NCBI GenBank assembly: GCA_964509765.1
Contig: CAZDYI010000049.1
Coordinates: 3,405-67,404, forward strand
Direction: 5' to 3'
DNA length: 64,000 nt
From: an uncultured Gammaproteobacteria bacterium
GTDB taxonomy: Bacteria; Pseudomonadota; Gammaproteobacteria; Tethybacterales; Tethybacteraceae
Part shown: positions 12,392 to 61,159 of the stretch, one piece after another
Layout of the letters: every line of letters starts with the position of its first letter
Position numbering within the stretch: position 1 is the first letter of the stretch
Translations under genes and position numbers: made by a program
Notes under the pieces: generated by a model
What the model was told of the DNA's origin: nothing
Seen by the model: only the letters and a program-made list of their open reading frames with translations
Database searches by the model: none

Positions 12392-13924
12392 TCACATTAG
12401 TTTCAGCTGACCATTGTCATCGGTCGAAGTTTGCTGTATGTCTGTCCGTGTCGAGGCATGCACTTCGTTGACTTTGTCGTGTCCGGGTTTCCACAAGCGG
12501 GAATAAACACCCTTGGAATACACCTCCATCCCCAACAGCAAGCAGTACTGTGCCACAGGCAGAAACGTTGCTTTACCTGATTCGTCAAGGTTGGCTGGAT
12601 AGGTGCTTCTTGTCGTGCAGTACATTCCGTCTAAGTGCTTCTTGTTGTTGATCACGGATGAGAAGTGCGACAGATTCTTGGCAGCCTCCTTCAGTGTTGA
12701 TTGCTTGTCGCTCCATTTGACTTCTGTTATCCTGGTAATCAAGTCGGAAAACTTGTACCGGTGAATCATGTCGATCTCGTACAGCTTTTCTCCCCTCTTG
12801 AAGGAAAGAAAATGTATTTCATCAGTCAAGGGCGGCAGGGTTTGCGTGTAGACTGTTGCCTCGACGATGTGACCCGCGCGGTCTTCGTTCGGGTCCAGAG
12901 GTCCGAACAGCGAGGTGTGGTGTGCCGTGTTTTCCAGCAAGTACTTGTGCTTGAAGTCCCTTTGGAGCCTTTCAAGCTCGTTGCCTGCGCGTGGCACGGA
13001 TCGGACCAGAAAAGAGTCCTTCAGGTATTCCATGTAGGTGTCGACGGTGGGGAACTGCACACCCGAAGCCTTTGCCATGCCTTCCTTGGACAGCTCCTGG
13101 CCGTCGTGCCTTGCTATGTACTTGTACAGCAGTTCAAGGGCCCGGGTTTTCCTCAGTTCGTAGTGCATCGGTATCTCGCGGACGGCGGCCCTCTGGATTG
13201 TGTCCGCGTATACCTCTTCGACGTCTGTTTCGCTGTAGCCTGTTCCCAGCAGCTCAACGAACGAGCCGAAGTTCATGTAGTCCAGGAAATTGTCATTGAG
13301 CTCCTCGATCTGTTCGCGGCCAAGCCGGTGCCGCCTCAGGGAGTCAGGCTCCCTGGGCAACCCGTCCGGCCACTTCCCCCTAGCGTCAAGGTACTCGAAG
13401 AACATCAGCGGAGGGGCGTACAGGTCGCGCACCCGTCCGTGCCCGGTTTCCAGGTGCTTCGGGTTCAACACAACTGACACCGAGCCGGACGCAACGAAGG
13501 TTGTGTCCTTTTCGTGGTCGGTAAGCGTCTTCAGATGGTGGGGCCAGTCCTCGGCGAACTGAATCTCATCGAAGATCACGAGCTTGTCGCCGTCCCCAAC
13601 GGCCGGAAGGCCCTTGAAGGCTTCGAGGATTTCGGTCAGGCTCGGCGAGCTCGGACTCAGCTTCTGCAAGTCCACGAAGCAGACATGCCGGCGCTCGATC
13701 AGTTTTGCCTCGAGGACGCGGCCGAGGAATTGCTTGAGGACGACGGTCTTCCCCACCCTGCGCTGGCCGTACAGGACAACGGTTCTCCTCGGAACCTTTT
13801 TCAGCGCCAGGCTTCCTAGCGGGTTGATGATCCTGCGCTCGAATCCGAAACTGGATTCTTCCGGCAGGACCTCGCTGCCCCACCAGGGATTTTGCTTGGC
13901 AATGGCGTCCTGCAACTCGGTCAT
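12392..13924 (-). CDS. AAA+ ATPase / wHTH / PD-(D/E)xK nuclease-like protein (COG1373; AAA_14 + DUF4143), paralog P1, ~510 aa
   Basis: NPWW motif, Walker A GQRRVGKT and Walker B LVIFDEIQ. The C-terminal triad is IVEAT...YEIDMI...TEVKWSD. Start chosen at ATG 13924 (MTELQDAIAKQNPWW). Composition is visibly AT-richer than the flanking operons. Confidence 0.8.
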   Translation of the reverse strand: MTELQDAIAKQNPWWGSEVLPEESSFGFERRIINPLGSLALKKVPRRTVVLYGQRRVGKTVVLKQFLGRVLEAKLIERRHVCFVDLQKLSPSSPSLTEILEAFKGLPAVGDGDKLVIFDEIQFAEDWPHHLKTLTDHEKDTTFVASGSVSVVLNPKHLETGHGRVRDLYAPPLMFFEYLDARGKWPDGLPREPDSLRRHRLGREQIEELNDNFLDYMNFGSFVELLGTGYSETDVEEVYADTIQRAAVREIPMHYELRKTRALELLYKYIARHDGQELSKEGMAKASGVQFPTVDTYMEYLKDSFLVRSVPRAGNELERLQRDFKHKYLLENTAHHTSLFGPLDPNEDRAGHIVEATVYTQTLPPLTDEIHFLSFKRGEKLYEIDMIHRYKFSDLITRITEVKWSDKQSTLKEAAKNLSHFSSVINNKKHLDGMYCTTRSTYPANLDESGKATFLPVAQYCLLLGMEVYSKGVYSRLWKPGHDKVNEVHASTRTDIQQTSTDDNGQLKLM

Positions 13925-13960: not shown

Positions 13961-13969
13961 TTACCGTGT

Positions 13970-13988
13970 GATATGTCGTAACCAATTG
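13970..13988 (-). promoter_or_regulatory. Conserved distal motif CAATTGGTTACGACATATC upstream of P1
   Basis: A near-identical motif (CAATTGGTTGCGAATATC) sits at 29065-29048 upstream of P4. In both cases it ends exactly 45 nt from the start codon. Confidence 0.5.
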
Positions 13989-14237
13989 TATATTCATGAA
14001 TAATCAATAATCCTACAACAATTGATTTGTATTTCAATTATCGTTTTCATGCATGTATCTTATTGATATCATTCATTAAAATAGTCAATGAAAACTATGT
14101 GCATATGTTAACAAAAGAGGGTGATGCATGGGAAGGTCAGGTAAAGAGCAAGTGTTGACGGAACATGGAATCGTGATTGCAAGGAAGAATTTTGGATGGA
14201 CCCGTGGAGGAGTTGGCGGATGCCGGAGAGGAGGCGG

Positions 14238-15692
14238 CTACAGGACATTCCACTGTTCGCAATACACATCGTCATTGCTGAAAATTTCCATTCCCAGCAG
14301 CAGGCAGTACTGCGCCGTCGGCATGAACCGGACGCGGCCTGTGTCGTCAAGGTCGTCGGGGTAGGTGGACTTGGTCGTGCAATAGCAACCGTCAAGCCGC
14401 TTGCCATGCTTGCCCTTTATTTTTATTTCGAAATGGACAAGATTTTCTGCGGCTGCACGCAGATTGGCTCTGTGATCGCTCCACTTGACTTCCGTGAGCC
14501 TGGTGACCTCCTCGCTCCTGCCGAAGCGGTGGACCATGTCTATTTCGTATTTCTTGTCACCCCTCTCGTAGAGTGCGTAGTTGATTTCGTTTTCTGCAGG
14601 AGGAAGGGTTTGCGTGAACACTGTTGCCTCGACTATGTGCCCGAACTCAGGTTGACTTGAAGGCGGATTGCCGTGCAGGAGTGAACTGTGTGAGGCGTGC
14701 TCCAGCATGTATTTCGTTCCTGCGTCGATCTGCAGCCGTTTCAGCTTGTTGCTGGAGCGATGCACTGTTCGAACAAGAAACGCCTCGCACAGGTAATTCA
14801 GATAGGAACCTACCGTCTCCTTGTCCAATCCCGAAACCATGGCGATGTCGTTTTTCTTCAGTTCCCGGCCGTTGTGTTGGGCAATGTGCCTGAACATTGT
14901 TTCCAGCCCGTCAATTTTTGTGATTCCATAGTGCAGCGGGATGTCCCGGATTATGGCCCTGTCAACCGCGTCTCTTCTCACCCTCCTGATTGCTTCCGGA
15001 GTGTAGCCGTGCTCGAGCAATTCCAGGAATGCGCCGTGTTTGACGTACTCAAGGAAACTGTCGTTCAGCGATTCGATGGCTGGGTCGTCCAGGCGATGAT
15101 CCCGCAACCCATCTGGGTCGCGCGGCAAGCCAGTTGGCCATTTGCCATTTGCCAACAAGTATTCGCAGAATAAAAAAGGAGGCACATACATGTCAAGAAA
15201 GCGCCCGTAGCCGGATTCCCTGTGTTTTGGATGCAGCACAGCCGAGACGGATCCGGAGACAACTAAGGCTGTGTCCTTTTCATGATCGGTCATGGTCTTG
15301 ATTTGGATTGGCCAGTCACTCGCAAACTGAATTTCGTCGAAGACCAACAGTTTCCTTCCCTCGCCGACAGAAGGCAGCTTCTTGAAGGCGCGGACAATGT
15401 CCTTGAGGATGCGTCCGCTGGTGAAGACCGCACCGAGGTCAACATAGCATGCGTGCTCCCGCTTGACGAGATTGTTCTCAATCGCCAGGCCAAGCATTTG
15501 CTTGAGCATGACTGTTTTTCCGGCCCGGCGCTGGCCGAACACCAGCAAGGACCTCCTCGGACCGTCGGAGAAAACATTGGCTCCGACTGGATGAAGGAAC
15601 ATCCGCTGGTAGTCGAGGCCGGTTTCCTCAGGCAGCTCGTTGCCTTCCCACCACGGGTTTTGGTTGACTAGATTGGACTGAAGCTCATCCAT
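14238..15692 (-). CDS. AAA+ ATPase / wHTH / PD-(D/E)xK nuclease-like protein (COG1373 type), paralog P2, ~484 aa
   Basis: NPWW, Walker A GQRRAGKT, Walker B LLVFDEIQ, IVEAT...YEIDMV...TEVKWSD. About half the N-terminal residues are identical to P1 by eye. Start chosen at ATG 15692 (MDELQSNLVNQNPWW); ATG 15704 is an alternative. Confidence 0.8.
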   Translation of the reverse strand: MDELQSNLVNQNPWWEGNELPEETGLDYQRMFLHPVGANVFSDGPRRSLLVFGQRRAGKTVMLKQMLGLAIENNLVKREHACYVDLGAVFTSGRILKDIVRAFKKLPSVGEGRKLLVFDEIQFASDWPIQIKTMTDHEKDTALVVSGSVSAVLHPKHRESGYGRFLDMYVPPFLFCEYLLANGKWPTGLPRDPDGLRDHRLDDPAIESLNDSFLEYVKHGAFLELLEHGYTPEAIRRVRRDAVDRAIIRDIPLHYGITKIDGLETMFRHIAQHNGRELKKNDIAMVSGLDKETVGSYLNYLCEAFLVRTVHRSSNKLKRLQIDAGTKYMLEHASHSSLLHGNPPSSQPEFGHIVEATVFTQTLPPAENEINYALYERGDKKYEIDMVHRFGRSEEVTRLTEVKWSDHRANLRAAAENLVHFEIKIKGKHGKRLDGCYCTTKSTYPDDLDDTGRVRFMPTAQYCLLLGMEIFSNDDVYCEQWNVL

Positions 15693-15719
15693 AGGAACCG
15701 GCATCAGTATAACACATAA

Positions 15720-15737
15720 AAGCGGATGCATCCGCTT
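15720..15737. promoter_or_regulatory. 18-bp perfect palindrome AAGCGGATGCATCCGCTT upstream of P2
   Basis: Perfect dyad. It lies 8 nt upstream of a TATACT -10-like box (15711-15706, minus strand), so it covers the -35 position of the P2 promoter. Confidence 0.45.
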
Positions 15738-20379: not shown

Positions 20380-20410
20380 CCCAAGGCGCAAGCCGGCGGT
20401 CACAGCCAAA

Positions 20411-20446
20411 GGGGGCCGGCAAGAAGTTGCCGGCCCCCTTTTTTTT
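20411..20446 (+). terminator. Strong intrinsic terminator/attenuator after the binding-protein gene
   Basis: A 12-bp perfect stem GGGGGCCGGCAA / TTGCCGGCCCCC with loop GAAG is followed by T8. Confidence 0.8.
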
Positions 20447-20502
20447 GGCGTAGGATAACAGCCTGAGAGGGCGCGGGTCGAAGGGAGCGACACAGCAATC
20501 GA

Positions 20503-21363: not shown

Positions 21364-21367
21364 AGAG

Positions 21368-22198: not shown

Positions 22199-22235
22199 CG
22201 GGCGCGCTGCCCGCTGCGGGCGGGCGGGAAAGCCG

Positions 22236-23138: not shown

Positions 23139-24571
23139 GCGGCGCGCCGCCGCTTCAGCGGCCGGGATACGACCCGGCCGACAGGACGCCGGGGATCGCC
23201 CACGTCGGCGTCGGAAACTTCCACCGCGCCCACCAGGCGGTGTACGTCGACGACCTGCTGTCCGACGCCGCCTGCGCCGGCTGGGGGATTTCGGGGATCA
23301 ACCTCGTCCCCGTCGGCGGCGCGCTGCTCGACGGGCTGCGCCGGCGCGGGATGCGCTACGTCCTCAAGACCGTATCGCCCGAAAGCGAGGTCAGGTACCG
23401 CGAGGTCGCCTCGATCCTCGACTGCGTTGACGCGACGGATGACCCCGGCGCGGCCGCGGCGCGGATTGCCGACGCGAAGACGAGGCTGGTCACCCTGACT
23501 GTGACTGGGGCGGGCTACCACCTGGCGTCGGGCGGAGAGCTCGACCTTTCCGCTCCTGCGGTCGCCGCCGACGTCGCCGGCGGCAGCTCGACGATCTACG
23601 GCTTGCTGCGCGACGGACTCAAGGCGCGGATGTCTGGCTGCTCTGAGCCGATCGCGGTGCTGAGCTGCGACAACCTGCGCGGCAACGGCCGCCTGCTCAG
23701 GGCGGCGACGGAGCGCTTTCTCGAGGAGGCGGGCGAAGGCGGCCTGAAGTCGTGGATGGCAGACAGCGCCTCGTTCCCCTGCTCGATGGTCGACCGCATC
23801 ACCCCGGTCACGCCCGAAGGCCTGTCGGGGGAGGTCGCCGCGGCGTTCGGAATCGAGGGCGACCCCTCGCTGATGGCCGAGGACTACATCCAGTGGGTGA
23901 TCGAGGACGACTTCGCCGGCGGCAGGCCGCCGCTCGAGGACGTCGGAGTCACCCTGACCGGCGACGTGCTCACACACGAGGAGGTCAAGATAAGGGTCCT
24001 CAACGCGGGGCACTCGGCTGTCGGCTACGTCTCCGCGCTGCGGGGCCACGAGTTCGTCTGGCAGGCGATGCGCGACGAGGCGGTGGCGTCGTTCCTTGAC
24101 GGCTTCGAGCGAGAGGAGGTCCTGCCCGGGCTCGGCAGCGCCGCGGACATAGACGTCGCGGGCTACTACGAGACGACCAAGGCGCGCTTTGCCAACCCGA
24201 ACCTCGATGATACCGTAGCCCGCATCTGCAGGCGCGGGACATCGAAGGTCCCCGAGTTCCTCGGCCCGACGATCAGGGCCTCCTACGAGGGCGGCAGGGT
24301 CCCGGCACGCGCCCTCACTGTCGTTGCCTCGTGGTACGAGGTCATGCGCCGATGCGCCGCGGGCAACTGCCCGATCAAGTACGAGGACTCCGGGTGGGAC
24401 GGGGTCAGGCACCACCTGTCGCCCGGCGGCGAGGAGGGCTTCGCGCGCGACGCGCGGCTGTGGGACGGGCTCCCGGAAAGGCACGCAGGCTTCGCGGGGG
24501 ACCTCGTCTCTAGGATAATTGAGGTCAGGAGTTCCGGCGGGGCCGGCCCCCTCGGCGGCAATTCCGGCTGA
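23135..24571 (+). CDS. mtlK: Mannitol 2-dehydrogenase (long-chain mannitol dehydrogenase family), ~478 aa
   Basis: N-terminal GIAHVGVGNFHRAHQAVYVDD motif. The only start candidate upstream of this motif is TTG 23135, which overlaps the AraC stop (TTGA). Confidence 0.8.
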   Translation: MSGAPPLQRPGYDPADRTPGIAHVGVGNFHRAHQAVYVDDLLSDAACAGWGISGINLVPVGGALLDGLRRRGMRYVLKTVSPESEVRYREVASILDCVDATDDPGAAAARIADAKTRLVTLTVTGAGYHLASGGELDLSAPAVAADVAGGSSTIYGLLRDGLKARMSGCSEPIAVLSCDNLRGNGRLLRAATERFLEEAGEGGLKSWMADSASFPCSMVDRITPVTPEGLSGEVAAAFGIEGDPSLMAEDYIQWVIEDDFAGGRPPLEDVGVTLTGDVLTHEEVKIRVLNAGHSAVGYVSALRGHEFVWQAMRDEAVASFLDGFEREEVLPGLGSAADIDVAGYYETTKARFANPNLDDTVARICRRGTSKVPEFLGPTIRASYEGGRVPARALTVVASWYEVMRRCAAGNCPIKYEDSGWDGVRHHLSPGGEEGFARDARLWDGLPERHAGFAGDLVSRIIEVRSSGGAGPLGGNSG

Positions 24572-24590
24572 CTGAACGGAGAGGAAAAAG

Positions 24591-25613
24591 ATGGCAAGCG
24601 TGGTTCTCGAGAAGATCAACAAGCACTACGGGGACGTGCACGCCCTCAGGGACATATCGCTGTCGATCGACGACGGCCAGTTCGTGGTGTTCGTCGGCCC
24701 GTCCGGCTGCGGCAAGTCGACCCTGCTGCGCACGATCGCAGGCCTCGAGGAGTGCAGCTCGGGCACCGTCAGCATCGGCGAGCGCGACGTCACCGACCTC
24801 GAGCCGTCGGACCGCGACGTCGCGATGGTGTTCCAGACCTACTCGCTGTACCCGCACATGACCGTGCGGCAGAACATGGAGTTCGGCCTGAAGGTCTCAG
24901 GCGCCAAGAAGGAGTTCCGCGACGGGCGGGTCGCCGAGGCGGCGCGGATACTCCAGCTCGAGGAGTACCTCGAGCGCAAGCCGGCGCAGCTCTCCGGCGG
25001 GCAGCGCCAGCGCGTCGCGATCGGCAGGGCGATAGTCAAGCACCCGAAGGTGTTCCTGTTCGACGAGCCGCTGTCGAACCTCGACGCGAAGCTGCGGGTC
25101 AGGATGCGCGTCGAGATCGAGGCGCTGCACAAGCAGCTCGGCGCGACGATGGTCTACGTAACCCACGACCAGGTCGAGGCGATGACGATGGCCGAGAAGA
25201 TCGTCATACTCAACGGCGGCGAGGTCGAGCAGGTCGGCTCGCCGCTAGAGCTCTACAACAGGCCGAGGACCGAGTTCGTAGCGGGCTTCATCGGCTCGCC
25301 GGAGATGAACATCTTCAATGCCGGCGAGCTGCCGACGCAGGAGGGGCTAGCGGTCAAGCCGGAGGCGAGCCGCGTCGGGGTCCGGCCTGAGCACATCGAG
25401 ACCGTTGCCAAGGGATCGGGCCTGTTCGACGCCTACGTCAGGGTCAAGGAGAGCCTCGGCAGCGAGAACTACCTGTACCTGGACGCGCCCAACGGGCTGA
25501 AGCTGATCGCGAAGACCGACGGGACCGACGGGACCGCGGCCGAATCCGACGTCGGCATCAGGATTCCGCCGGAGCGCCTTTACCAGTTCGGCAAGGACGA
25601 GGCTACGCTCTAG
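24591..25613 (+). CDS. Sugar/polyol ABC ATP-binding protein (MsiK/SmoK type), 340 aa
   Basis: Walker A GPSGCGKST, signature LSGGQRQRVAIGRA, Walker B FLFDEPLSNLD. Confidence 0.9.
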   Translation: MASVVLEKINKHYGDVHALRDISLSIDDGQFVVFVGPSGCGKSTLLRTIAGLEECSSGTVSIGERDVTDLEPSDRDVAMVFQTYSLYPHMTVRQNMEFGLKVSGAKKEFRDGRVAEAARILQLEEYLERKPAQLSGGQRQRVAIGRAIVKHPKVFLFDEPLSNLDAKLRVRMRVEIEALHKQLGATMVYVTHDQVEAMTMAEKIVILNGGEVEQVGSPLELYNRPRTEFVAGFIGSPEMNIFNAGELPTQEGLAVKPEASRVGVRPEHIETVAKGSGLFDAYVRVKESLGSENYLYLDAPNGLKLIAKTDGTDGTAAESDVGIRIPPERLYQFGKDEATL

Positions 25614-25652
25614 CGGGCCCCGGAACTTAAGCCGGCCGCACTGCCGGCGGCC

Positions 25653-27077
25653 TCATCCGGCCTGTTCGCCCTCCAGGCCGTCCATGCCGAGCGACAGGCA
25701 GTACTGCGACGTCGGAAGGAAGGTCACGTTGCTGTCCTTCGAGTCGTGGTAGACGGACTTCGTCGTGCAGAACACGCCCTCGAAGCCGCGCGCCTTCCTC
25801 AGCGTGCGGTGGAAGTGCTCGAGGTTGCCCTTTGCCCTGTCCAGGCTGCCGGTGTTGTCCGACCACTTGACCTCTGCGAGGCGGGTGACCTCGCGCGCGG
25901 CGTTGGTGTGGACCAGGTCGACCTCGCGCTCCCTGCCGCTGTCCGTCAGCCGGCAGTAGCGCACCGGCGGGGCGGCGCCGGGGTCGCCCTCGACCGGCGG
26001 GGCCTGGCACTGCGAGATGACCGTGGCCTCGATCCTGTGTCCCGCGGCGCTTCCCGAAAGCGAGGCCCTTTCCGAGAAGGCCCTGTGCATCGCCGGGCTC
26101 TCGAGCACGTACTTGTAGGGGTAGCGGTCGCCGCCGCGCCCGGCGTCGAAGTTGGTGACCTGCCTTACAAGGAAGGCCGCCTTGAGGAACTCCAGGTACT
26201 TGTTTATGGTCGGCCTCGTAATCCCGGTGTTCTTCGCAAGCTTGTCGAGCGCGATCTCCTGCGCCTCGTTTTTCGCGATGTGCCTCAGCACCGGGAGCAT
26301 GCGGTGCCCGGCGCTGATCCCGTAGTCGGCGGCGTGCTTCGTGAACAGGTCGTCGTCGAGGATGTTCAGCCCGAAGTCCCTGTCCCTCGAGAACCCGGCG
26401 TCGAACGCGGGCTCCGGGTAGCAGCCGAAGTTGATGTAGTCGACGAACAGCTCGTTGAGCCTGGCGACGTCGTCGCTGCCGAGCCTTTCGGTCCGGGCCT
26501 CGGCCGCCGTGCCTGGCAGCCTCCCGTTCCAGTCCTCGCGCACAAGGCAGAACTCGTGGAAGCTCAGCGGCGACAGCCTGAGCTGCAGGAGCCTTCGCCT
26601 GCGGCCTTCGCTGCCCTGTCGCTTGAGCGCCGGCGCGATCGAGCAGGCCGCGACGATCCTGATTCCCTTCCTGCCGCCTGCGATCCGCGCGAGGTCCCCC
26701 TGCCAGTCCTCGCAGTTCTGGATCTCGTCTAGGACGACCAGGCAGGGCCTGCCCGCCCCGGAGCCGGCCCGGAACTTGCGCGCGAGCGTCGAGGGGCGGA
26801 CTCCCGACAGCAGCGCGGCCTCCATGTTCGCGTAGCAAACGTTCCCCGGGCCGAAGGCGCCGCCCGACACGGCCTCGCCGATGAGCTGCTTGAGCATCAC
26901 GGTCTTGCCCACCTTCCTCATGCCCTGCAGGACCACGGGCTGCCCGGCCCCGGGCCCGAGCGCCAGCCGGGCGAACCGCGCGTACGGCTGCCTCCGCGCG
27001 AGGGCGCGCTCCGGCGGGGCGGCCTCGCTGCGCCACCACGGGTTCTCCTCCGCGAGCCGCGGGATCTCGATGTCCAT
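25653..27077 (-). CDS. AAA+ ATPase / wHTH / PD-(D/E)xK nuclease-like protein (COG1373 type), paralog P3, 474 aa
   Basis: NPWW, Walker A GMRKVGKT, Walker B LVVLDEIQ, RIEAT...REVDLV...AEVKWSD. Codon usage is host-like and G/C-rich, unlike P1, P2, P4 and P5. Confidence 0.8.
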   Translation of the reverse strand: MDIEIPRLAEENPWWRSEAAPPERALARRQPYARFARLALGPGAGQPVVLQGMRKVGKTVMLKQLIGEAVSGGAFGPGNVCYANMEAALLSGVRPSTLARKFRAGSGAGRPCLVVLDEIQNCEDWQGDLARIAGGRKGIRIVAACSIAPALKRQGSEGRRRRLLQLRLSPLSFHEFCLVREDWNGRLPGTAAEARTERLGSDDVARLNELFVDYINFGCYPEPAFDAGFSRDRDFGLNILDDDLFTKHAADYGISAGHRMLPVLRHIAKNEAQEIALDKLAKNTGITRPTINKYLEFLKAAFLVRQVTNFDAGRGGDRYPYKYVLESPAMHRAFSERASLSGSAAGHRIEATVISQCQAPPVEGDPGAAPPVRYCRLTDSGREREVDLVHTNAAREVTRLAEVKWSDNTGSLDRAKGNLEHFHRTLRKARGFEGVFCTTKSVYHDSKDSNVTFLPTSQYCLSLGMDGLEGEQAG

Positions 27078-27106
27078 CAGGGCAGGGGCGGCCGGGCTTG
27101 AGGCCG

Positions 27107-27451
27107 TCAGCAGCAGTCCTCCTCGCGCTTGGGAACGACGCCGTAGTCGAAGTCGTCGTTGACGACGGCCATCAGGTTCCGCGCGGCGTAGTCGAGGACG
27201 TCGAGCCAGACGAGCGCGTCGAACTTCTCGTTGACCGAGATGGTTTCCGACATGTCGCGCTTCGCGAGCTTGCCGTTGACCGTCTTGAGGACGTCGTTGA
27301 TGTCCTTGCGGAGCCGCTCCCTCTGGGCGTCCCCCAGCGTGTCGATCCGCTCGGTGGCGATGCTCCGCCTCGGCCCGCGCGTTGCGATGGCCCCGAGCGC
27401 CTCCTCGCGGCGGGCGAGGACCCGTTCCTGCTTGCCGTCGTCCGTGTTCAT
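27107..27451 (-). CDS. Hypothetical 114-aa charged protein co-oriented immediately upstream of P3
   Basis: GAGGAG lies 10 nt upstream of ATG 27451 and third positions are G/C-rich. It has no His residues and ends in EEDCC. I recognise no family. Confidence 0.6.
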   Translation of the reverse strand: MNTDDGKQERVLARREEALGAIATRGPRRSIATERIDTLGDAQRERLRKDINDVLKTVNGKLAKRDMSETISVNEKFDALVWLDVLDYAARNLMAVVNDDFDYGVVPKREEDCC

Positions 27452-27516
27452 CTGTCGTTCGCTCCTCGCCTCATTCGGGATCCGGGCTGCCGAAATCCCG
27501 AAAAGGGCGGTGTAGC

Positions 27517-27546
27517 ATGCTAGCACGGCATGCGGGCGGATTTCAA
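27517..27546 (-). promoter_or_regulatory. Putative promoter TTGAAA-N18-TAGCAT for the small gene and P3
   Basis: On the minus strand, TTGAAA (27546-27541) and TAGCAT (27522-27517). The -10 sits inside the palindrome TAGCATGCTA. The ~59-nt leader contains the hairpin TTCGGGAT-N13-ATCCCGAA. Confidence 0.4.
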
Positions 27547-27571
27547 GCGGAAGCCGTGTCCCGCGCGAACT

Positions 27572-29002
27572 TCATGTAGTTTTTTCCATGGATTCGAGTC
27601 CCAGCGACACGCTGAACTGCGAGGTGGGCAGGAAGGTCACCTCCTTCTTGCGGTCCTCTCCGTAGGCCGTCTTTGTGGTGCAGAAGCAGCCGTCGAAGGA
27701 CTTGGCCTTCTTCTTCCTGCTCCTGACGTGCGCCAGGCTGTCGGCGGACTTGGCATGGCGGTCCCTCTTGTCGCTCCACTTGATTTCGCAGAGCCTGTGG
27801 AGGTAGGCGGCGCCCCTCGGCGTGACAACCATGTCAACCTCCCTGTCAATCCCGTCGCGCCTGTACCTGCAGTAGAACACCTTTTTTCCTGTGACGCTCG
27901 AGGCCGCGAAGCAGTTGTGGTACTGAGTGAGCGCCGCCGCCTCGATGGCGTGTCCCGCATCGTCGTCGTCAATGGAGACCGGGTTGTTGTACAGGCCGTG
28001 CATGTTGGGATTGACCAGGTGGTACTTGCGCGCCGAGTCCTTCTGCAATGCCCGCAGGGCCGACCCGAGCTTGGGCACTTTCCTGATCAGCAGGCATGCC
28101 TCGAGGTACTTCAGGTACTTCTTGATGGTCTCGGGCTCCATTCCCGTCTGCTTCTCGATCGAGTCGATCGAGACCTCCTGGCAGTTGTGTCCGGCAACGT
28201 GCTCGAATATAGTCTCAAGCCCCTCAGCGTCGGTCACCCCGTACAGCTGCGGCAGGGTGCTGAACAGGTCCTTGTCCGGCATGTGCTGCTCATGGTATTC
28301 CCGACGGCCCCTGGCGATCTCGGGATGCAGCACCAGCGCGGGAAACGCGCCGTAGTTGATGTAGTCGATGAAGTCCTCGTTGAGCGAGTTGACCTCCTCC
28401 CGGCCGAGCCTGGCGGACCTGGCCTGCGCGGCGGTTCTCGGCAGGCCGTCCGGCCACTTGCCGGAAAAGTCCAGGTACTCGCAAAACAGAAGTGGCGGCA
28501 GGAAGAACCTGTAGAACCTGCCGGTTCCCGCCTCGGCGCTCTTGCGCTTGAGCTCCGACAGGGCCGATCCGGTGACCGCAAGGCTGATGCCCTTCTCGCG
28601 GTCGGTCAGGTCCTTGACCTCCCGCTCCCAGTCAAGCCGGAACTGGATCTCGTCGAGCACGAACAGCGCCGGCCTGCCCGGGTCCGCAACGGCCTTGAAC
28701 TGCTCCACAAGCGCCGACGGGGAATGCTTGCCCAGCAACGAGTTCTGGTACGACGCGAAGCACACGTTCCTCGGGCTGAACCTGCCGGACGAGATGGCCT
28801 GCCCGACCAGCTGCATGAGCATCACGGTCTTGCCCACCCTCCTCGGCCCGTGCAGCACGGCAGTGAAGGGCAGCTTCGGGTCCAGGGCGATCCGCTCCAC
28901 CTGGGGGTAAAGCATTCTCTTGTGCTCGAACGAGTGCTCCTCGGGGAGGATGTCCGCGTCCCACCAGGGATTGGTGATCCTCAGTATGTCGATGATGCCC
29001 AC
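27572..29002 (-). CDS. AAA+ ATPase / wHTH / PD-(D/E)xK nuclease-like protein (COG1373 type), paralog P4, ~476 aa
   Basis: NPWW, Walker A GPRRVGKT, Walker B LFVLDEIQ, AIEAA...REVDMV...CEIKWSD. Start chosen at GTG 29002 (VGIIDILRITNPWW). Confidence 0.8.
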   Translation of the reverse strand: MGIIDILRITNPWWDADILPEEHSFEHKRMLYPQVERIALDPKLPFTAVLHGPRRVGKTVMLMQLVGQAISSGRFSPRNVCFASYQNSLLGKHSPSALVEQFKAVADPGRPALFVLDEIQFRLDWEREVKDLTDREKGISLAVTGSALSELKRKSAEAGTGRFYRFFLPPLLFCEYLDFSGKWPDGLPRTAAQARSARLGREEVNSLNEDFIDYINYGAFPALVLHPEIARGRREYHEQHMPDKDLFSTLPQLYGVTDAEGLETIFEHVAGHNCQEVSIDSIEKQTGMEPETIKKYLKYLEACLLIRKVPKLGSALRALQKDSARKYHLVNPNMHGLYNNPVSIDDDDAGHAIEAAALTQYHNCFAASSVTGKKVFYCRYRRDGIDREVDMVVTPRGAAYLHRLCEIKWSDKRDRHAKSADSLAHVRSRKKKAKSFDGCFCTTKTAYGEDRKKEVTFLPTSQFSVSLGLESMEKTT

Positions 29003-29009
29003 GGAGTGG

Positions 29010-29065
29010 ATTATACACCAAACCGAATCGATTCGGCTTGATGGATGGATATTCGCAACCAATTG
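29010..29065 (-). promoter_or_regulatory. P4 upstream control region: TATAAT -10, 14-bp palindrome, conserved distal motif
   Basis: On the minus strand, TATAAT (29015-29010) ends 7 nt before GTG 29002 with no SD. The perfect palindrome CCGAATCGATTCGG (29023-29036) sits over the -35 position. The distal motif CAATTGGTTGCGAATATC is at 29065-29048. Confidence 0.5.
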
Positions 29066-29208
29066 ATAAAGCAAAGTAATTTACAATATCTGCTGACCAA
29101 TCGGCATCGTTCCGCCTTGTTGGATGATTTTTTACAACTCATTGATATGCTGAATTTAATTATGTCCGACCCGCCGCAACCTACGAACAGGGGCCGCACG
29201 GGGCTGTC

Positions 29209-30087
29209 CTAGCCCTTGACCCCGGTGCTTGCAACCGACGCGATGAAGGCCCGCTGCAGGCTCAGGTAGAAGGCCAGCACCGGAACCGTGATGATCGACA
29301 GGTATGCCATGACCTCGCCCCAGGCGACGTTCAGCTGGAAGAAGTAGAGCAGGCCGACCATGACCGGACGCACCTCGGACTCCTGCGCGACCATGATCGG
29401 CCACAGGAGCTGGTTGTTGTACATGAACAGGAACTTGAGGATCGCCGCGGTCGCGAAGACCGGCCCCGACAGCGGGACGATGACCAGCAGGTAGATCCTA
29501 AACCAGCTCGCGCCGTCGACGCGGGCCGCCTCGATGAACTCCCTCGGCAGGTCGCGGAAGTACTGCACGAACAGGAAGACCGTCAGCGCGTCGGCGATGA
29601 ACGGGACGATCTGCACGTGGTACGAGCTGATCCAGCCGAACTCGATCCCGTCCGCCCCGACCCACGGCAGCTCGTTTACTATCAGAAGCAGCGGGATCGC
29701 GACCGTCTCGAACGGCAGTATGTAGGTCGCCAGGATCACCGTCAGCACCGCTCCGCGCCCGCGCCACTCGAGGAACACGAAGCTGAAGGCGGCAAGCGAG
29801 CACAAAAACAGCGACAGCGCGAGCGTCACCGAGGTGATCAGCACCGAGTTCCCGACGAAGCGCAGCACCGGCGCCCGGTCGAAGGCCTCCCGGTAGTTGT
29901 CGAGCGAGACGTCCCCGACGGGCAGGAAGGCGCGGAACGAGCCGCTGTCGCGCAGCAGCTGCAGGTCCGGCTTGAGCGACGACACCACCATGAACACCAT
30001 CGGGAAGACGAACACGAGCGCGATCCACGCGAGCAGCGTGTAGCGCAGGGCCAGGCTCGCCGCGCTCAGCCGGCGCACGGGGGTCAC
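29209..30087 (-). CDS. Sugar ABC permease (MalG/CUT1 type), 292 aa
   Basis: 6-TM permease profile. It overlaps the upstream permease by 4 nt. Confidence 0.85.
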   Translation of the reverse strand: MTPVRRLSAASLALRYTLLAWIALVFVFPMVFMVVSSLKPDLQLLRDSGSFRAFLPVGDVSLDNYREAFDRAPVLRFVGNSVLITSVTLALSLFLCSLAAFSFVFLEWRGRGAVLTVILATYILPFETVAIPLLLIVNELPWVGADGIEFGWISSYHVQIVPFIADALTVFLFVQYFRDLPREFIEAARVDGASWFRIYLLVIVPLSGPVFATAAILKFLFMYNNQLLWPIMVAQESEVRPVMVGLLYFFQLNVAWGEVMAYLSIITVPVLAFYLSLQRAFIASVASTGVKG

Positions 30088-31181
30088 TCCCTCTCCCTCG
30101 TCAGGTAGCGCTGCAGCAGCGAGATCGACAGGACGAACAGGAACAGGAACACCGAGATCGCCGAGCCGCCGGCGATGTCCTGCTTGCCGTAGCCGCGCTC
30201 GACCATCTGGAAGACCAGCGACTGCGTCGAGTCAAGCGGACCGCCGTTGGTCATCACCGCGATCTGCGGGTAGAGCGTGAACGCCTGCATCGTGATGATG
30301 ACCATCACCAGGATAGCGGTGTTGCGCAGCCCCGGCCAGGTGACGTAGCGGAAGGTCTGCCACGTCGAGGTCCCCTCGAGGCGCGCGACCTCGTAGAGGG
30401 TCGGCGGTATCGTCTGCAGGCCGCCGAGCCAGATGATCATGTGGAAGCCGACCGACTGCCAGATCGACATCGCGATGATCGCGCCGAGCGCCGTGTTCGT
30501 CTGCCCGAGCCAGTCGACCGGCTCGAAGGCCCCGAAGGTGAAAAAGCCGAGCAGGGTGTTGAGTATCCCGTTCTCCCCGTCGTAGATGAAGCGCCACAGC
30601 ATCGACACCACGACGATCGAGATGACCGTCGGCATGAAGTAGATCGTCCGGAATATGTTGATCCCGCGCAGCGGCTGGTTTATCAGCAGCGCAAGCAGCA
30701 GGGCGAGCGCCGCCTGGGTGGGCGCGACGATCGCGACGAAGGTCACCGTTATCGTCAGCGCCTTCATGAACAGGACGTCGCGCGCGAGTACGACCAGCTG
30801 CCGGTCGTCCCGCAGGGAGAACCGCATCCACTCCCGGGTCTTGTTCAGGTGGGGGTAGTCGGGGTTGTTCCGTGTAAACGTGCGCAGCCTCGGGTACTTC
30901 GGGCTGCCGTCCTCGCCGCGGACGACCGTCCCGTCGCCGGCGCGCTCGGGCTCGAGCGCCAGCGTGTGCACGCCGAGCATCTCCTGGAAGTTGCGCAGCC
31001 CGACGTACTCCGCCGGGTTGGGCGAGAACAGGCGCTGGTTCGTGAACGCGAAGACGAACGCAAGCAGGAAGGGGATGACGAGAAAGCACAGCAGCAGCGC
31101 AGTCGCCGGCGCGGCGAACGCGACGCCCGCTGCGGTCTGGCTCCTCTTCCGGGGCCTGGGCCCGGCGCTGTCCGCCGTCAT
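30084..31181 (-). CDS. Sugar ABC permease (MalF/CUT1 type) with an enlarged first extracytoplasmic loop, 365 aa
   Basis: Permease core plus a ~80-aa loop after TM1 (HTLALEPERAGDGTVVRGEDGSPKYPRLRTFTRNNPDYPHLNKTREW...). Confidence 0.85.
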   Translation of the reverse strand: MTADSAGPRPRKRSQTAAGVAFAAPATALLLCFLVIPFLLAFVFAFTNQRLFSPNPAEYVGLRNFQEMLGVHTLALEPERAGDGTVVRGEDGSPKYPRLRTFTRNNPDYPHLNKTREWMRFSLRDDRQLVVLARDVLFMKALTITVTFVAIVAPTQAALALLLALLINQPLRGINIFRTIYFMPTVISIVVVSMLWRFIYDGENGILNTLLGFFTFGAFEPVDWLGQTNTALGAIIAMSIWQSVGFHMIIWLGGLQTIPPTLYEVARLEGTSTWQTFRYVTWPGLRNTAILVMVIITMQAFTLYPQIAVMTNGGPLDSTQSLVFQMVERGYGKQDIAGGSAISVFLFLFVLSISLLQRYLTRERE

Positions 31182-31270
31182 GGCGTCACGGCCTCGGCGC
31201 TGACGGGTTCAGGCCCGCCGGCGTTCCCTGGGCCGGCGGGCTGGCTTTTCAGGCGTCGCGCCCGCGCGCC

Positions 31271-32530: not shown

Positions 32531-32652
32531 GAACTTCCTCCGTTGTGAGACAAGCCGATAAATTGTATAACCTGTCCGGCGCGCCCTGCAGCAGGCGCGG
32601 TCGCAACAGAGCAGCATGAAAAAAAGGGCCTCACGGTTGCAGGAAGGGGAGC

Positions 32653-59884: not shown

Positions 59885-61159
59885 ATGGCAAAGAGGAAGC
59901 GGTTTGCCCGGGAGATCGAAGGCATGATCAGGAGCGGCCTGAAGAAATTTCCTGTCGTGCTGCTCGAGGGGTCGAGGCAGGTCGGCAAGACCAACACCGT
60001 TGAGGAAATCTGTGCCGAGCTTGGAGGAGCCTACATCACCCTCGACGACATGGATTCGTGGCTCAAGGCCAAACAGAAGCCGAAGGACCTCCTCCAGGGA
60101 GCCGAGTCCGGCTTCGTGGTGGTGGACGAGATCCAGCGCGAGCCGCTGCTTTTCATTACCGCGAAGCGGTACGTTGACATGTACCGGCGTCCGGGGATGT
60201 TCCTACTTACCGGTTCTTCCAAGAGGTACAAGTCGAAGAAAAACTACGAGTCGATGTCCGGAAGGCAGCAGACGTTGCTGATGCGTCCGTTGAGCCAGGC
60301 CGAGATTGAGTCCGCCAGGACTGGCGGCGGTCCTGCGTTTGTGAACGTGATGGATGCGATCAGGGACGGCCTGAGCCCTCCTGACGCAAGCTGCGCCGGA
60401 TTGAAGCGCAGGATCTGGCTCGGTGGTTACCCGATAGTGGTTAACTCGCCAAGGGATAAGGACGAGAAAATCGAGGAATTCATCCTGAACGAAATCATCA
60501 ACGAGTTCCTGTTGATGGGAGGTGGCAAGTCAATTGCAATGCTGCCAAGGTTTCTCAGGAAGATGACGAGGAAGCAAGGCAAGGTCATCAACATCAGGGA
60601 GATCGCCAATGAGTGCGGGCTGAGCGGACAAGAAGGCAAGGCAGTGGCTGACATGCTGGACGACTCGTACGTCTTCGAGCCGCTGCCCAGCTTGGGATAT
60701 CCCCTCGGTGGGAAGCAGCTGGTGCGGAAAGCCAAGGTATACCTAAACGACACCGGGCTGTCCACCAATCTTCTCGAATTGGACGCCAAGTCGGTAGACT
60801 CCAGTCCATACTGGGGCACATTGCTGGAGTCCTTCGTTCTTGCTGAGTTGCGCAAGCACCTGACTACAAGTTATTTTTCTCGGCTGGCTCTTCCTTGCCA
60901 TTACAAGGAAACCGAAGGCATCGAGGTTGACATCGTGTTTTACGACTCGAAGCGAGACACGTACATTGCCATCGAGGTAAAGGCGTCAAACAGGGTGGAC
61001 CCAAGCGACTGGAGGCACCTGCAGTCGTTTAGGATGATGGCAGGTGACAAGTGCGAAAGGGCGATACTGTTCTACACAGGCAGAAAGGTTGAGAAGCTCA
61101 GCAAGGACGTCGAGGCCTGGCCTGTCTCGTGCCTTTGGAAGTGGAGGGAAAAGAAGTGA
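59885..61159 (+). CDS. AAA+ ATPase / PD-(D/E)xK (COG1373; AAA_14 + DUF4143), canonical-length paralog P5, 424 aa
   Basis: Walker A GSRQVGKT, Walker B FVVVDEIQ, C-terminal LLESFV...GIEVDIV...IAIEVKAS. Composition is AT-richer than the flanks. Confidence 0.85.
   Translation: MAKRKRFAREIEGMIRSGLKKFPVVLLEGSRQVGKTNTVEEICAELGGAYITLDDMDSWLKAKQKPKDLLQGAESGFVVVDEIQREPLLFITAKRYVDMYRRPGMFLLTGSSKRYKSKKNYESMSGRQQTLLMRPLSQAEIESARTGGGPAFVNVMDAIRDGLSPPDASCAGLKRRIWLGGYPIVVNSPRDKDEKIEEFILNEIINEFLLMGGGKSIAMLPRFLRKMTRKQGKVINIREIANECGLSGQEGKAVADMLDDSYVFEPLPSLGYPLGGKQLVRKAKVYLNDTGLSTNLLELDAKSVDSSPYWGTLLESFVLAELRKHLTTSYFSRLALPCHYKETEGIEVDIVFYDSKRDTYIAIEVKASNRVDPSDWRHLQSFRMMAGDKCERAILFYTGRKVEKLSKDVEAWPVSCLWKWREKK

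What the first reader, a model, noticed from the sequence alone, without database searches (positions are those of the whole stretch)
25614..29208. Island 2: second tandem pair of the same paralog family, one host-like and one AT-richer, again behind an MsiK-like ATPase gene
P3 (25653-27077) and P4 (27572-29002) repeat the arrangement of island 1. Both are on the minus strand and convergent with the 3' end of an MsiK-type ABC ATPase gene, with a gap of 39 bp here and 5 bp in island 1. Both are followed by the start of an unrelated operon.

P3 and the small gene in front of it use host-like G/C-rich codons, so they look like old residents. P4 is intermediate in composition and ends in an AT-rich 130-bp tract (29075-29208). 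The two islands are 11.7 kb apart. No integrase, transposase or flanking direct repeat is visible.

This suggests repeated capture or duplication of the family at equivalent operon-end positions, or recombination between the paralogous ATPase genes. The cause is not clear from the sequence.
Basis: partly seen in the sequence, partly recalled or inferred. Interest (0 to 1): 0.65.

Follow-up and report, generated by a model that had tools for sequence, protein, structure and literature searches.

The report
Paralogous ATPase-nuclease genes between sugar operons
Island 2 is an inherited three-gene block whose two large genes belong to a very common but untested family of ATPase-nuclease proteins (candidate anti-phage genes); this lineage multiplied them by duplication, and their position next to a sugar-transporter ATPase gene is mostly coincidence.

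Summary
The genes are real and sit at the stated coordinates. P3 (25653-27077, -) and P4 (27572-29002, -) are AAA_14 + DUF4143 proteins (COG1373, PADLOC candidate PDC-S01), as are P1, P2 and P5.

A confident model shows an ORC/Cdc6/STAND-like ATPase, a winged helix and a C-terminal PD-(D/E)xK nuclease-like domain. All catalytic residues are kept.

- **Inheritance:** Island 2 (P4, an orphan 114-aa gene, P3) has the same flanks in two relatives about 8-9% divergent. It is under purifying selection (dN/dS 0.08-0.32 for P3 and P4).
- **Origin:** P1-P4 fall in one small, lineage-restricted subfamily (98-100% bootstrap). This points to in-lineage duplication, not independent capture.
- **ATPase adjacency:** The two ABC ATPases are only 53% identical and the junctions share nothing. 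None of 80 family loci lies next to such an ATPase, and none of 80 homologous sugar operons carries a subfamily member.
- **One slot is old:** A more distant genome also has a family gene 13 bp behind the ATPase2 orthologue.
- **Correction:** The DNA upstream of P4 is the 3' end of a co-directional ABC operon, not the start of a new operon.

Verdict: new members of a known, uncharacterised family. Interest is modest.

The parts
24591..25613 (+). ABC transporter ATPase ('ATPase2', UgpC/MalK family). It is the last gene of the sorbitol/mannitol-type (Smo) operon 19075-25613: SBP, two permeases, AraC regulator, mannitol dehydrogenase, ATPase.
   Evidence: Pfam ABC_tran + TOBE_2. NCBIfam UgpC subfamily, 453.6 bits against a 432-bit cut-off. 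Operon content.
25614..25652 (.). 39-bp G+C-rich spacer (GC 0.79) between the convergent stop codons of ATPase2 and P3. It holds an imperfect hairpin that is no more stable than shuffled sequence.
   Evidence: z-score -0.01 and -0.54.
25653..27077 (-). P3: AAA_14 + DUF4143 ATPase-nuclease, subfamily clade A, 474 aa. Its composition is host-like (GC 0.69, GC3 0.94). It has no promoter-like site of its own and is probably co-transcribed with the small gene 29 nt upstream.
   Evidence: Pfam. PADLOC PDC-S01 HMMs, E 6e-28. Orthologues 95% and 87% identical at the same locus. dN/dS 0.18-0.32. Upstream scan.
27107..27451 (-). Orphan 114-aa ORF between P4 and P3. GC3 is 0.91 and a GAGG Shine-Dalgarno-like site lies upstream. 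It is intact and of the same length in both relatives. Function unknown.
   Evidence: dN/dS 0.34-0.62. Only its own cluster was found among 1.84 billion representatives. No Pfam, NCBIfam, PADLOC or PHROG hit. Unrelated to the family.
27452..27571 (-). 120-nt P4-to-small-gene spacer. It holds the only sigma-70-like site of the region (TTGAAA-18-TAGCAT, 27546-27517, minus strand) and is well folded (z -2.7). It is the likely promoter or leader of the small-gene/P3 unit.
27572..29002 (-). P4: AAA_14 + DUF4143 ATPase-nuclease, subfamily clade B, 476 aa, GTG start. Composition is intermediate (GC 0.62, GC3 0.87).
   Evidence: Pfam. PDC-S01 HMMs, E 2e-38. Orthologues 99% and 96% identical; dN/dS 0.08-0.12. 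AlphaFold2 model pLDDT 90.8.
27929..28177 (-). 249-nt stretch inside P4 (winged-helix region and start of the nuclease domain). It is identical in three lineages that otherwise differ by 8-9%. The cause is unexplained.
   Evidence: Permutation P = 2e-4. No RNA-structure or Rfam signal.
29003..29208 (-). A+T-rich (GC 0.45) upstream region of P4. A TATAAT hexamer ends 7 nt before the GTG start and there is no Shine-Dalgarno site. It is the least conserved part of the locus (77-83% identity to relatives), so it is non-coding.
29209..30087 (-). Last permease gene of the co-directional ABC operon B (SBP 31271-32617, permeases 30084-31181 and 29209-30087). The operon has no ATPase gene of its own. 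It forms the upstream flank of island 2.
   Evidence: Same arrangement in L003 and L004.
12392..13924 (-). P1 (clade C), for comparison. GC is 0.56. It is absent from a close relative, where a 511-bp A+T-rich spacer takes its place. Its reading frame runs about 35 aa past the family's usual end, to 5 bp from the ATPase1 stop.
14238..15692 (-). P2 (clade C), for comparison. GC is 0.54. Its orthologue is 85% identical at the same locus in a relative whose flanking genes are 97-99% identical.
59885..61159 (+). P5: a fifth AAA_14 + DUF4143 gene from a different, more typical PDC-S01 branch. It lies directly after the 5S rRNA gene.
   Evidence: (E 5e-87 to PDLC04790).

Best explanation
**What it is (shown).** Island 2 is a stably inherited three-gene block: P4, an orphan 114-aa gene, and P3. 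It lies in the gap between two convergent sugar-ABC operons.

P3 and P4 belong to the very large COG1373 / AAA_14-DUF4143 family (PADLOC candidate PDC-S01). From N- to C-terminus they carry:
- a conserved NPWW segment;
- an ORC/Cdc6/STAND-like P-loop ATPase;
- a helical and winged-helix region;
- a PD-(D/E)xK restriction-endonuclease-like domain.

**How it arose (shown to inferred).** P1-P4 belong to one small subfamily, seen only in this lineage and a few metagenome relatives. It expanded by duplication and divergence into clades A (P3), B (P4) and C (P1, P2). There are at least seven copies in this genome, often as neighbours. Copy content turns over: P1 is present here and absent in a relative.

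The copies sit in intergenic gaps at operon ends, probably because insertions there do no harm. In a region packed with sugar-ABC operons, such ends are often ABC ATPase genes. The slot behind the Smo operon's ATPase is old and inherited. The resemblance of island 1 to it is coincidental.

**How the proteins most likely work (inferred, not shown).** ATP binding or hydrolysis would control oligomerisation or a conformational switch, as in ORC/Cdc6 and STAND NTPases. The winged helix would bind DNA and the nuclease domain would cut it. That makes each protein a single-chain ATP-gated nuclease directed at foreign DNA, with the divergent paralogs giving different specificities.
For: **Family and architecture**
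- Both Pfam domains score above their gathering thresholds in P1-P5, and all match PDC-S01 HMMs.
- Walker A (G52, R54, G57, K58), Walker B (D117, E118) and the nuclease residues E354, D390 and K408 are invariant in 70 aligned family members, including P1-P5.
- The full-length P4 model has pLDDT 90.8 and pTM 0.91. Its best PDB matches are CED-4, Apaf-1 and archaeal and eukaryotic ORC/Cdc6.
- The C-terminal domain model has pLDDT 89.7 and an alpha-beta-beta-beta-alpha-beta order. Its best matches are the PD-(D/E)xK nuclease domains of Can2, Card1 and Cdn1, then EcoT38I and Bax1 (TM 0.55, probability about 1.0).
- DUF4143 is listed as a PD-(D/E)XK family of unknown function (PMC3424549).

**Inheritance**
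- The same SBP-permease-permease-P4-small-P3-ATPase2 arrangement occurs in L003 and L004, at 92% and 91% nucleotide identity.
- dN/dS is 0.08-0.12 for P4 and 0.18-0.32 for P3.

**Common origin**
- The subfamily has 100% and 98% bootstrap support. Clades B and C each have 100% and clade A has 68%.
- A third A+B pair occurs in the same samples as the window (L175).

**Turnover**
- L085 lacks P1 and shows no coding remnant.

**Old slot**
- L174 has P0261, 38% identical to P3, 13 bp behind the ATPase2 orthologue (78.5% identical). It also has a clade-C gene plus P0009 beside the SRAP remnant upstream of the SBP gene.

**Adjacency is not general**
-.
Against: - No member of PDC-S01 has been tested; the family is one of 145 'untested phage defence candidates' (bioRxiv 10.1101/2024.01.29.577857; PMC12988326). 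The defence role and the ATP-gated nuclease mechanism are therefore inference from domains only.
- No known defence gene is a neighbour; the neighbours are sugar-transport and metabolic genes.
- The trees are neighbour-joining with a simple distance correction. Deep nodes are weak: clade A has 68% support, and the sequences from the distant relative are unresolved.
- The taxonomic relation between the window organism and the L174 organism (GC 0.51) is unknown. The shared block could have been transferred as a unit rather than inherited.
- The lower G+C of P1, P2 and P4, and the A+T-rich promoters they carry, would also fit import from a lower-G+C relative.
Confidence: 0.65

Rival explanations
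1. The family is repeatedly captured at, or targeted to, the 3' ends of MsiK-type ATPase genes, or is moved between them by recombination between the paralogous ATPase genes.
For: Two of three family loci in the window are convergent with a MalK/UgpC-type ATPase gene, with very short gaps of 5 and 39 bp. A third case occurs in the distant relative L174, with a 13-bp gap.
Against: - The L174 case is at the orthologous operon end, so it reflects inheritance and is not a new event.
- The ATPases are 53% identical, and similarity stops at the gene ends.
- The junctions do not align (score 8, against a shuffle mean of 10.6).
- 0 of 80 family loci and 0 of 80 Smo loci show the association.
- Subfamily members occur beside His_Phos_1, GATase and other genes.
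- In L174 the island-1 slot borders an aldo-keto reductase gene.
- The chance expectation is 0.06-0.2.
Confidence: 0.07
2. P3-type (clade A) and P4-type (clade B) proteins form an obligate two-gene module, for example a hetero-oligomer. The module was duplicated as a unit, so the tandem pairing is functional and not an accident of duplication.
For: - Two separate A+B pairs exist in the same lineage: island 2 and L175/L091.
- Their topologies are congruent, and divergence is similar in both partners (P3 to L175a 44.5%, P4 to P0256 46.7%).
- Pairs are far commoner in the subfamily (3-4 of 7 loci) than in the wider family (1 of 80). Fisher P is 8e-5 to 1e-3.
Against: - Gene order is reversed: B-A in island 2 and A-B in L175.
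- An orphan gene and a separate promoter-like site split the island-2 pair.
- Single A or B genes exist (P0003 and P0140).
- Island 1 is a C+C pair and is a single gene in L085.
- The L174 pair is clade C plus an unresolved member.
- The wider family is essentially single-gene.
Confidence: 0.2
3. The genes are selfish, self-contained cassettes (promoter plus ATPase-nuclease gene). They spread within and between genomes and settle in harmless intergenic gaps, with no benefit to the host.
For: - Each first-in-unit gene brings its own A+T-rich upstream region with a -10-like hexamer 6-13 nt from the start codon.
- P1 is a presence/absence polymorphism between close relatives.
- P1, P2, P5 and, more weakly, P4 have below-host G+C.
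- Density is high: 5 copies in 64 kb.
Against: - There are no terminal repeats, target duplications or recombinase genes.
- P3 and P4 keep their locus and are under purifying selection across about 9% divergence, P4 strongly so.
- There are no PHROG matches and only two weak plasmid hits.
Confidence: 0.12
4. They are winged-helix regulators or accessory factors functionally tied to the neighbouring sugar-transport operons.
For: - They contain a winged helix-turn-helix.
- Family genes flank the Smo operon on both sides in two divergent genomes.
Against: - None of 80 Smo operons from other taxa has a subfamily member within 10 kb.
- No family locus is linked to ABC ATPase genes.
- The Smo operon has its own AraC regulator.
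- The strictly conserved nuclease and ATPase residues are not explained by a regulatory role.
Confidence: 0.03

Closest known systems
COG1373 / Pfam AAA_14 (PF13173) + DUF4143 (PF13635) 'ATP-binding protein', equal to PADLOC phage-defence candidate PDC-S01
   Same: P1-P5 have the same two-domain architecture, with both Pfam domains above threshold and strong PDC-S01 HMM matches. They are single-gene units, and the ATPase and PD-(D/E)xK residues are conserved. The family is described as an ATPase fused to a PD-(D/E)XK domain and as the fourth most common 'defence' call in prokaryotes (PMC12988326).
   Different: - P1-P4 form a divergent branch. They are 28-36% identical to the nearest named members, and the PDC-S01 HMMs cover them only partly.
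- The branch is known from about 27 sequences.
- It is unusually dense and is often in tandem pairs, which the wider family is not (1 of 80).
- The family itself has no tested function and no solved structure.
ORC/Cdc6 initiators and STAND NTPases (CED-4, Apaf-1, bacterial Avs)
   Same: These are the best structural matches of the P4 model. They share a P-loop NTPase followed by helical and winged-helix domains. In these families the nucleotide state controls assembly.
   Different: - TM-scores are low (0.35-0.45).
- Sequence similarity is marginal (ORC4 E 8e-4 with a profile).
- There are no sensor repeats as in Avs or NLR proteins.
- Here the effector is a fused PD-(D/E)xK domain.
- Membership of either clade is not established.
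PD-(D/E)xK nuclease effectors of CRISPR type III ancillary proteins (Can2, Card1, Cdn1) and type II restriction enzymes (EcoT38I)
   Same: These are the best structural matches of the C-terminal domain (TM 0.55 to Can2). It shares the alpha-beta-beta-beta-alpha-beta core and the E...D...ExK residue pattern.
   Different: - Foldseek E-values are weak (4e-3 at best) and sequence identity is 11-13%.
- The controlling domain is an ATPase, not a CARF domain.
- No cyclic-oligoadenylate system is nearby.
MsiK-type shared ABC ATPase
   Same: ATPase1 and ATPase2 belong to the same MalK/UgpC/MsiK sequence family. The neighbouring operon B lacks an ATPase gene, so it might borrow one (inference).
   Different: MsiK is defined by being unlinked to any transporter operon and serving several. 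Both ATPase genes here are the terminal genes of complete operons.

Membership tests
AAA_14 + DUF4143 (COG1373) | N-terminal AAA_14 P-loop domain above the Pfam gathering score | tested here: met
   P3 75.8 bits, P4 79.5, P1 81.6, P2 74.6, P5 71.6, against a cut-off of 27.
AAA_14 + DUF4143 (COG1373) | C-terminal DUF4143 domain above the Pfam gathering score | tested here: met
   P3 37.8 bits, P4 50.2, P1 48.4, P2 56.3, P5 94.6, against a cut-off of 28.1.
PADLOC PDC-S01 candidate | Match to PDC-S01 profile HMMs as a single-gene system | tested here: met
   Best E-values: P3 6e-28, P4 2e-38, P1 6e-36, P2 7e-40, P5 5e-87. PADLOC's own system-calling rules were not run.
PADLOC PDC-S01 candidate | Protection against phage or other foreign DNA | not testable with these tools
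   PDC systems are described as untested candidates.
P-loop NTPase (active) | Intact Walker A (GxxxxGKT) and Walker B (hhhhDE) motifs | tested here: met
   G52, R54, G57, K58, D117 and E118 are invariant in 70 sequences, including P1-P5.
ORC/Cdc6 or STAND clade of AAA+-like NTPases | NTPase, helical and winged-helix fold matching solved members | tested here: inconclusive
   The top Foldseek hits are CED-4, Apaf-1 and ORC2/ORC4, with probability 1.0 but TM only 0.26-0.45. The clade cannot be assigned.
PD-(D/E)xK nuclease superfamily | Alpha-beta-beta-beta-alpha-beta core carrying a conserved acidic/acidic/lysine triad | tested here: met
   Secondary-structure order comes from the model. E354, D390 and K408 are invariant. 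Best structural matches are the Can2, Card1, EcoT38I and Bax1 nuclease domains. Literature assignment: PMC3424549. Catalysis itself was not tested.
Defence island | Clustering with known defence systems | tested here: not met
   The neighbours within about 12 kb are ABC transporter, glycosidase, dehydrogenase, P-type ATPase and SRAP genes. No PADLOC hit occurs apart from the family itself.
Genomic island / mobile element | Integrase or transposase, flanking direct repeats, or a tRNA attachment site | tested here: not met
   No such genes are present in 1-34368. No junction repeats were found. The island is present with the same flanks in relatives.
MsiK-type orphan ATPase (neighbouring gene) | ATPase gene unlinked to any transporter operon | tested here: not met
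   ATPase1 ends the operon 6295-12386, and ATPase2 ends the operon 19075-25613.

The most novel reading that the evidence does not exclude
In this lineage the normally single-gene PDC-S01-type ATPase-nuclease may have become a multigene repertoire built from partnered A-type and B-type copies. The partners would work together as hetero-oligomers and would be duplicated as units. Fixed 'slots' on both sides of a sugar operon would be refilled over time. A related possibility is that the block 'family genes, SRAP, Smo operon, family gene' moves between genomes as a unit. It is shared by two genomes with 68% and 51% G+C and with different outer flanks.
Probability: 0.15. Interest if true: 0.55.

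Novelty: new member of a known kind. Interest (0 to 1): 0.3.

Why it matters
PDC-S01 / COG1373 is among the most frequently called 'defence' gene families in bacteria and archaea, yet nobody has shown what it does and no structure is solved.

This locus offers a compact natural comparison set:
- five intact paralogs within 64 kb, and more elsewhere in the genome;
- clear purifying selection on the copies;
- a presence/absence polymorphism (P1) between close relatives;
- recurrent A+B pairs.

That makes it a reasonable place to test whether these proteins are ATP-gated nucleases, and whether paralogs cooperate.

For the genome scan itself, the lesson is that 'same position behind the same kind of gene' was produced by inheritance plus a region saturated with ABC operons. 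It was not produced by a targeting mechanism.

Tried and rejected
- **First guess at taxon.** I assumed an actinobacterium from G+C and 'MsiK', and dropped this. The best matches of the Smo operon are proteobacterial MAGs. The 23S rRNA is only about 81% identical to the best chromid copies. The taxon stays unresolved. A search for the sample accessions in papers found nothing.
The downstream junctions scored below the shuffle mean. The upstream regions share only short A+T-rich matches of about 20 nt.
- **Flanking repeats.** Only the paralogous coding cores appear.
- **Remnant of P1 in the relative's spacer.** None was found. Only 91 nt of the P2-P1 intergenic region aligns.
- **Terminator in the 39-bp gap.** The hairpin is no better than shuffled sequence, and the terminator scan is at background.
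- **Small ORF.** It has no homologues outside its own cluster in 1.84 billion representatives. It has no family hits and is not a decayed family fragment.
- **Solved structures.** None for the family by sequence or profile.
- **Phage or plasmid carriage.** No PHROG family and two weak plasmid hits.
- **RNA element in the 249-nt invariant tract.** No structure signal and no Rfam match.
- **General link between the family and Smo operons.** Three of 80 loci have a distant P5-like gene within 10 kb, which is about what chance would give.

Full report
**1. What is in the sequence**

P3 is at 25653-27077 (-). A small ORF lies at 27107-27451 (-, 114 aa in the public gene call). P4 is at 27572-29002 (-, GTG start; the longest ORF reaches 29074). 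All are convergent with an ABC ATPase gene at 24591-25613 (+), across a 39-bp gap. Island 1 holds P1 (12392-13924/13960, -) and P2 (14238-15692/15731, -), 5 bp behind a second ABC ATPase gene at 11325-12386.

tblastn shows four paralogs:
- P1-P2 are 51.5% identical.
- P3-P4 are 37% identical.
- P1/P2 against P3/P4 are 31-35% identical.

A fifth, more distant copy (P5, 59885-61159, +) was found through Pfam.

Third-position G+C confirms the composition claim:

| Gene | GC3 |
|---|---|
| Host genes | 0.92-0.96 |
| P3 | 0.94 |
| Small gene | 0.91 |
| P4 | 0.87 |
| P5 | 0.75 |
| P1 | 0.72 |
| P2 | 0.66 |

The tract upstream of P4 (29003-29208) has G+C 0.45.

**2. Corrections to the description**

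- The DNA beyond P4's 5' end is not the start of a new operon. It is the stop codon of permease gene 29209-30087 (-). This is the last gene of a co-directional operon of SBP (31271-32617) and two permeases, which has no ATPase gene of its own. Island 2 therefore lies between two convergent ABC operons.
- Both 'MsiK-like' genes are the final genes of complete operons. One operon is SBP, two permeases, a glycoside hydrolase and ATPase1 (6295-12386). The other is a sorbitol/mannitol-type operon of SBP, two permeases, AraC, mannitol dehydrogenase and ATPase2 (19075-25613).
- The window holds at least five ABC ATPase genes.

**3. What the proteins are**

P1-P5 all carry Pfam AAA_14 plus DUF4143 above threshold. 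All match the PADLOC models of phage-defence candidate PDC-S01. NCBIfam and PHROGs have nothing for them.

An alignment of 70 family members shows these invariant residues: Walker A (G52, R54, G57, K58 in P4 numbering), Walker B (D117, E118), and E354, D390 and K408.

The AlphaFold2 model of P4 is confident (pLDDT 90.8, pTM 0.91). Its best PDB matches are CED-4, Apaf-1 and ORC/Cdc6 proteins, so it is an NTPase with helical and winged-helix domains. TM-scores are low (0.26-0.45).

Modelled alone, the C-terminal 142 residues (pLDDT 89.7) have the alpha-beta-beta-beta-alpha-beta order of restriction-endonuclease-like folds. They best match the nuclease domains of Can2, Card1 and Cdn1, then EcoT38I and Bax1 (TM 0.55).

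DUF4143 is catalogued as a PD-(D/E)XK family of unknown function (PMC3424549). No family member has a solved structure. PDC-S01 is reported as very abundant but is one of 145 untested candidates (PMC12988326, PMC13356809 and bioRxiv 10.1101/2024.01.29.577857).

**4. Is island 2 an island?**

The exact proteins occur on an NCBI contig of 76,248 bp and on short metagenome contigs.

Two relatives, at 92% and 91% nucleotide identity (L003, L004), have the identical arrangement: SBP, permease, permease, P4, small gene, P3, then the convergent ATPase2.

Nei-Gojobori estimates:

| Gene | dN/dS |
|---|---|
| P4 | 0.08-0.12 |
| P3 | 0.18-0.32 |
| Small gene | 0.34-0.62 |
| Flanking genes | 0.08-0.21 |

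So P3 and P4 are functional, resident genes on this time scale, and P4 is no less resident than P3. Only the more distant genome L174 hints that P4 and the small gene could be later additions (section 7).

The small gene has no homologue outside its own cluster among 1.84 billion representative proteins. It is not a decayed family fragment.

**5. Island 1 turns over**

In the same relative sample, the island-1 locus (L085) has the P-type ATPase (99% aa), SRAP (90%) and ATPase1 (97%). It has only one family gene, the P2 orthologue (85% aa, dS 0.42).

P1 is replaced by a 511-bp A+T-rich spacer with no coding remnant. Only 91 nt of the P2-P1 intergenic region aligns.

**6. Common origin**

Searches with P3, P1 and P4 find few close relatives, all from metagenomes. 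Everything else is 36% identical or less.

Neighbour-joining trees place P1-P4 in one subfamily:
- 19 of 98 sampled sequences, 100% bootstrap.
- 27 of 54 sampled sequences, 98% bootstrap.

Within it:
- **Clade C (100%):** P1, P2 and a gene of L174.
- **Clade B (100%):** P4, P0255, P0256/P0257, P0140.
- **Clade A (68%):** P3 and its orthologues, P0003/4, P0005/6, L175a.

A third tandem pair lies on other contigs from the same samples as the window (L175/L176). It consists of an A-like gene (44.5% to P3) and a B-like gene (46.7% to P4), 13 nt apart. It has an orthologue in the relative (L091).

**7. Is the position behind an ABC ATPase meaningful?**

For:
- A more distant genome (ENA contig, L090/L174, G+C 0.51) has the same Smo operon (SBP 86%, ATPase2 78.5%).
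- In it a family gene (P0261, 38% to P3) lies 13 bp behind the ATPase gene.
- A tandem pair (a clade-C gene 46% identical to P2, plus P0009) sits beside an SRAP remnant upstream of the SBP gene. This is the same relative place and orientation as P2 and P1.
- Both slots around the Smo operon are therefore old.

Against any targeting:
- The outer neighbour of that pair is an aldo-keto reductase gene, not an ATPase gene.
- L174 has no P4, no small gene and no operon B.
- Only the Smo operon, SRAP and the family genes are shared between the two genomes.
- ATPase1 and ATPase2 are 53% identical, and their nucleotide similarity is confined to the ABC core.
- The junctions do not align.
- None of 80 homologous Smo loci from GTDB genomes has a P1-P4-type gene within 10 kb.
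- None of 80 wider-family loci from metagenomes is within 1 kb of a MalK-type ATPase gene.
- Other subfamily members lie beside unrelated genes.

With about 3 of 14 transcription-unit ends being ABC ATPase genes, two of three loci at such ends is expected with P of about 0.06-0.2 (my rough estimate of unit ends).

**8. Tandem pairing**

Pairing is a property of this subfamily and not of the family. Three or four of seven subfamily loci are pairs, against 1 of 80 wider-family loci (Fisher P 8e-5 to 1e-3).

The two A+B pairs have congruent relationships and similar divergence, which fits duplication as a unit. However:
- gene order is reversed between them;
- single A or B genes exist;
- island 1 is a C+C pair;
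- the island-2 pair is split by the orphan gene and a separate promoter-like site.

I therefore rate an obligate two-gene module at about 0.2.

**9. Expression signals (inferred only)**

A -10-like hexamer, usually with an upstream TG, ends 6-13 nt before the start codon of P1, P2, P4, P5, P0140 and P0003. None has a Shine-Dalgarno site.

P3 has no such site. It follows the small gene by 29 nt. The small gene has a GAGG site, and the only sigma-70-like match of the region lies upstream of it (27546-27517).

**10. Verdict**

It is wrong about capture, about ATPase-mediated recombination and about equivalence of position.
- The genes are new, divergent members of a known but uncharacterised family.
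- The most likely mechanism is an ATP-controlled, winged-helix-guided PD-(D/E)xK nuclease acting on foreign DNA. This rests on domain content and conservation only.
- Interest is modest (0.3). The value of the locus lies in being a compact, naturally replicated test set for an abundant family of unknown function.

Noticed in passing
window 56286-59672: A 23S rRNA gene (56582-59478) and a 5S gene (59557-59672) have no 16S gene upstream. Instead a tRNA-Lys gene lies on the opposite strand (56286-56362), with protein genes before it. This is an unlinked rRNA arrangement. The 23S is only about 81% identical to the best chromid-borne copies, which are Burkholderia and relatives, so the taxon is unresolved.
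   Followed up: partly
window 27929-28177 (inside P4): A 249-nt run is identical in the window, L003 and L004, although the loci differ by 8-9% overall (permutation P = 2e-4). The whole P4 CDS is 98-100% identical to L003 (dS 0.034), while its flanks are 83-97% identical (dS 0.11-0.25). This could be gene conversion, recent exchange, or a nucleotide-level constraint. No RNA structure or Rfam signal was found.
   Followed up: partly
window 12387-14237 versus L085 4937-5447: P1 is a presence/absence polymorphism between close relatives. In L085 a 511-bp A+T-rich spacer takes its place. P1's reading frame also extends about 35 aa beyond the family's usual C-terminus, ending 5 bp from the ATPase1 stop.
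   Followed up: yes
upstream of window 13924, 15692, 29002 and 59885; L086 3742; L093 602: A -10-like hexamer (TATAAT or TATACT, mostly with an upstream TG) ends 6-13 nt before the start codon, with no Shine-Dalgarno site. These may be leaderless transcripts.
   Followed up: partly
window 29209-32617: ABC operon B (an SBP and two permeases) has no ATPase gene, and the same is true in L003 and L004. Island 2 sits exactly where an ATPase gene would be expected. The operon may borrow ATPase2 or another ATPase.
   Followed up: no
window 19075-25613 versus L005-L084 and L174: The Smo-type operon's SBP and permeases are 75-87% identical to those of taxonomically scattered MAGs (Ca. Amphirhobacter, Rhodobacteraceae, Cellvibrionaceae). 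The regulator and dehydrogenase are far less conserved. This hints at horizontal spread of the transporter genes.
   Followed up: no
L175 2-2905, L176, L091 2852-5701: A third tandem pair, of a P3-like and a P4-like gene 6-13 nt apart, lies elsewhere in the same lineage.
   Followed up: yes
L174 (ENA ERZ25070769 contig_6): At least five AAA_14-DUF4143 genes lie on one 140-kb contig: P0009, P0258, P0261, a 479-aa gene and a P5-like 436-aa gene. A D12 methyltransferase gene and a second SRAP gene lie near P0261.
   Followed up: partly
L017 5441-8526: A Rhodobacterales MAG has two tandem P5-like family genes 1.5 kb upstream of its Smo-type SBP gene. This is probably chance, given how common the family is.
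   Followed up: no
window 13969-13992 and 29050-29070 (minus strand): P1 and P4 share a motif of about 21 nt, TAT(A)CAATTGGTT(A/G)CGA(C)ATATC, at about -45 to -68 from their start codons (shuffle P = 0.004, uncorrected for five comparisons). It is only loosely kept in L003 and L004.
   Followed up: no
window 14238-15731 versus L085 3446-4936: P2 has diverged much more from its orthologue (85% aa, dS 0.42) than its neighbours have (97-99% aa, dS 0.08-0.12; SRAP dS 0.30). This suggests faster evolution or allele replacement at this slot.
   Followed up: no
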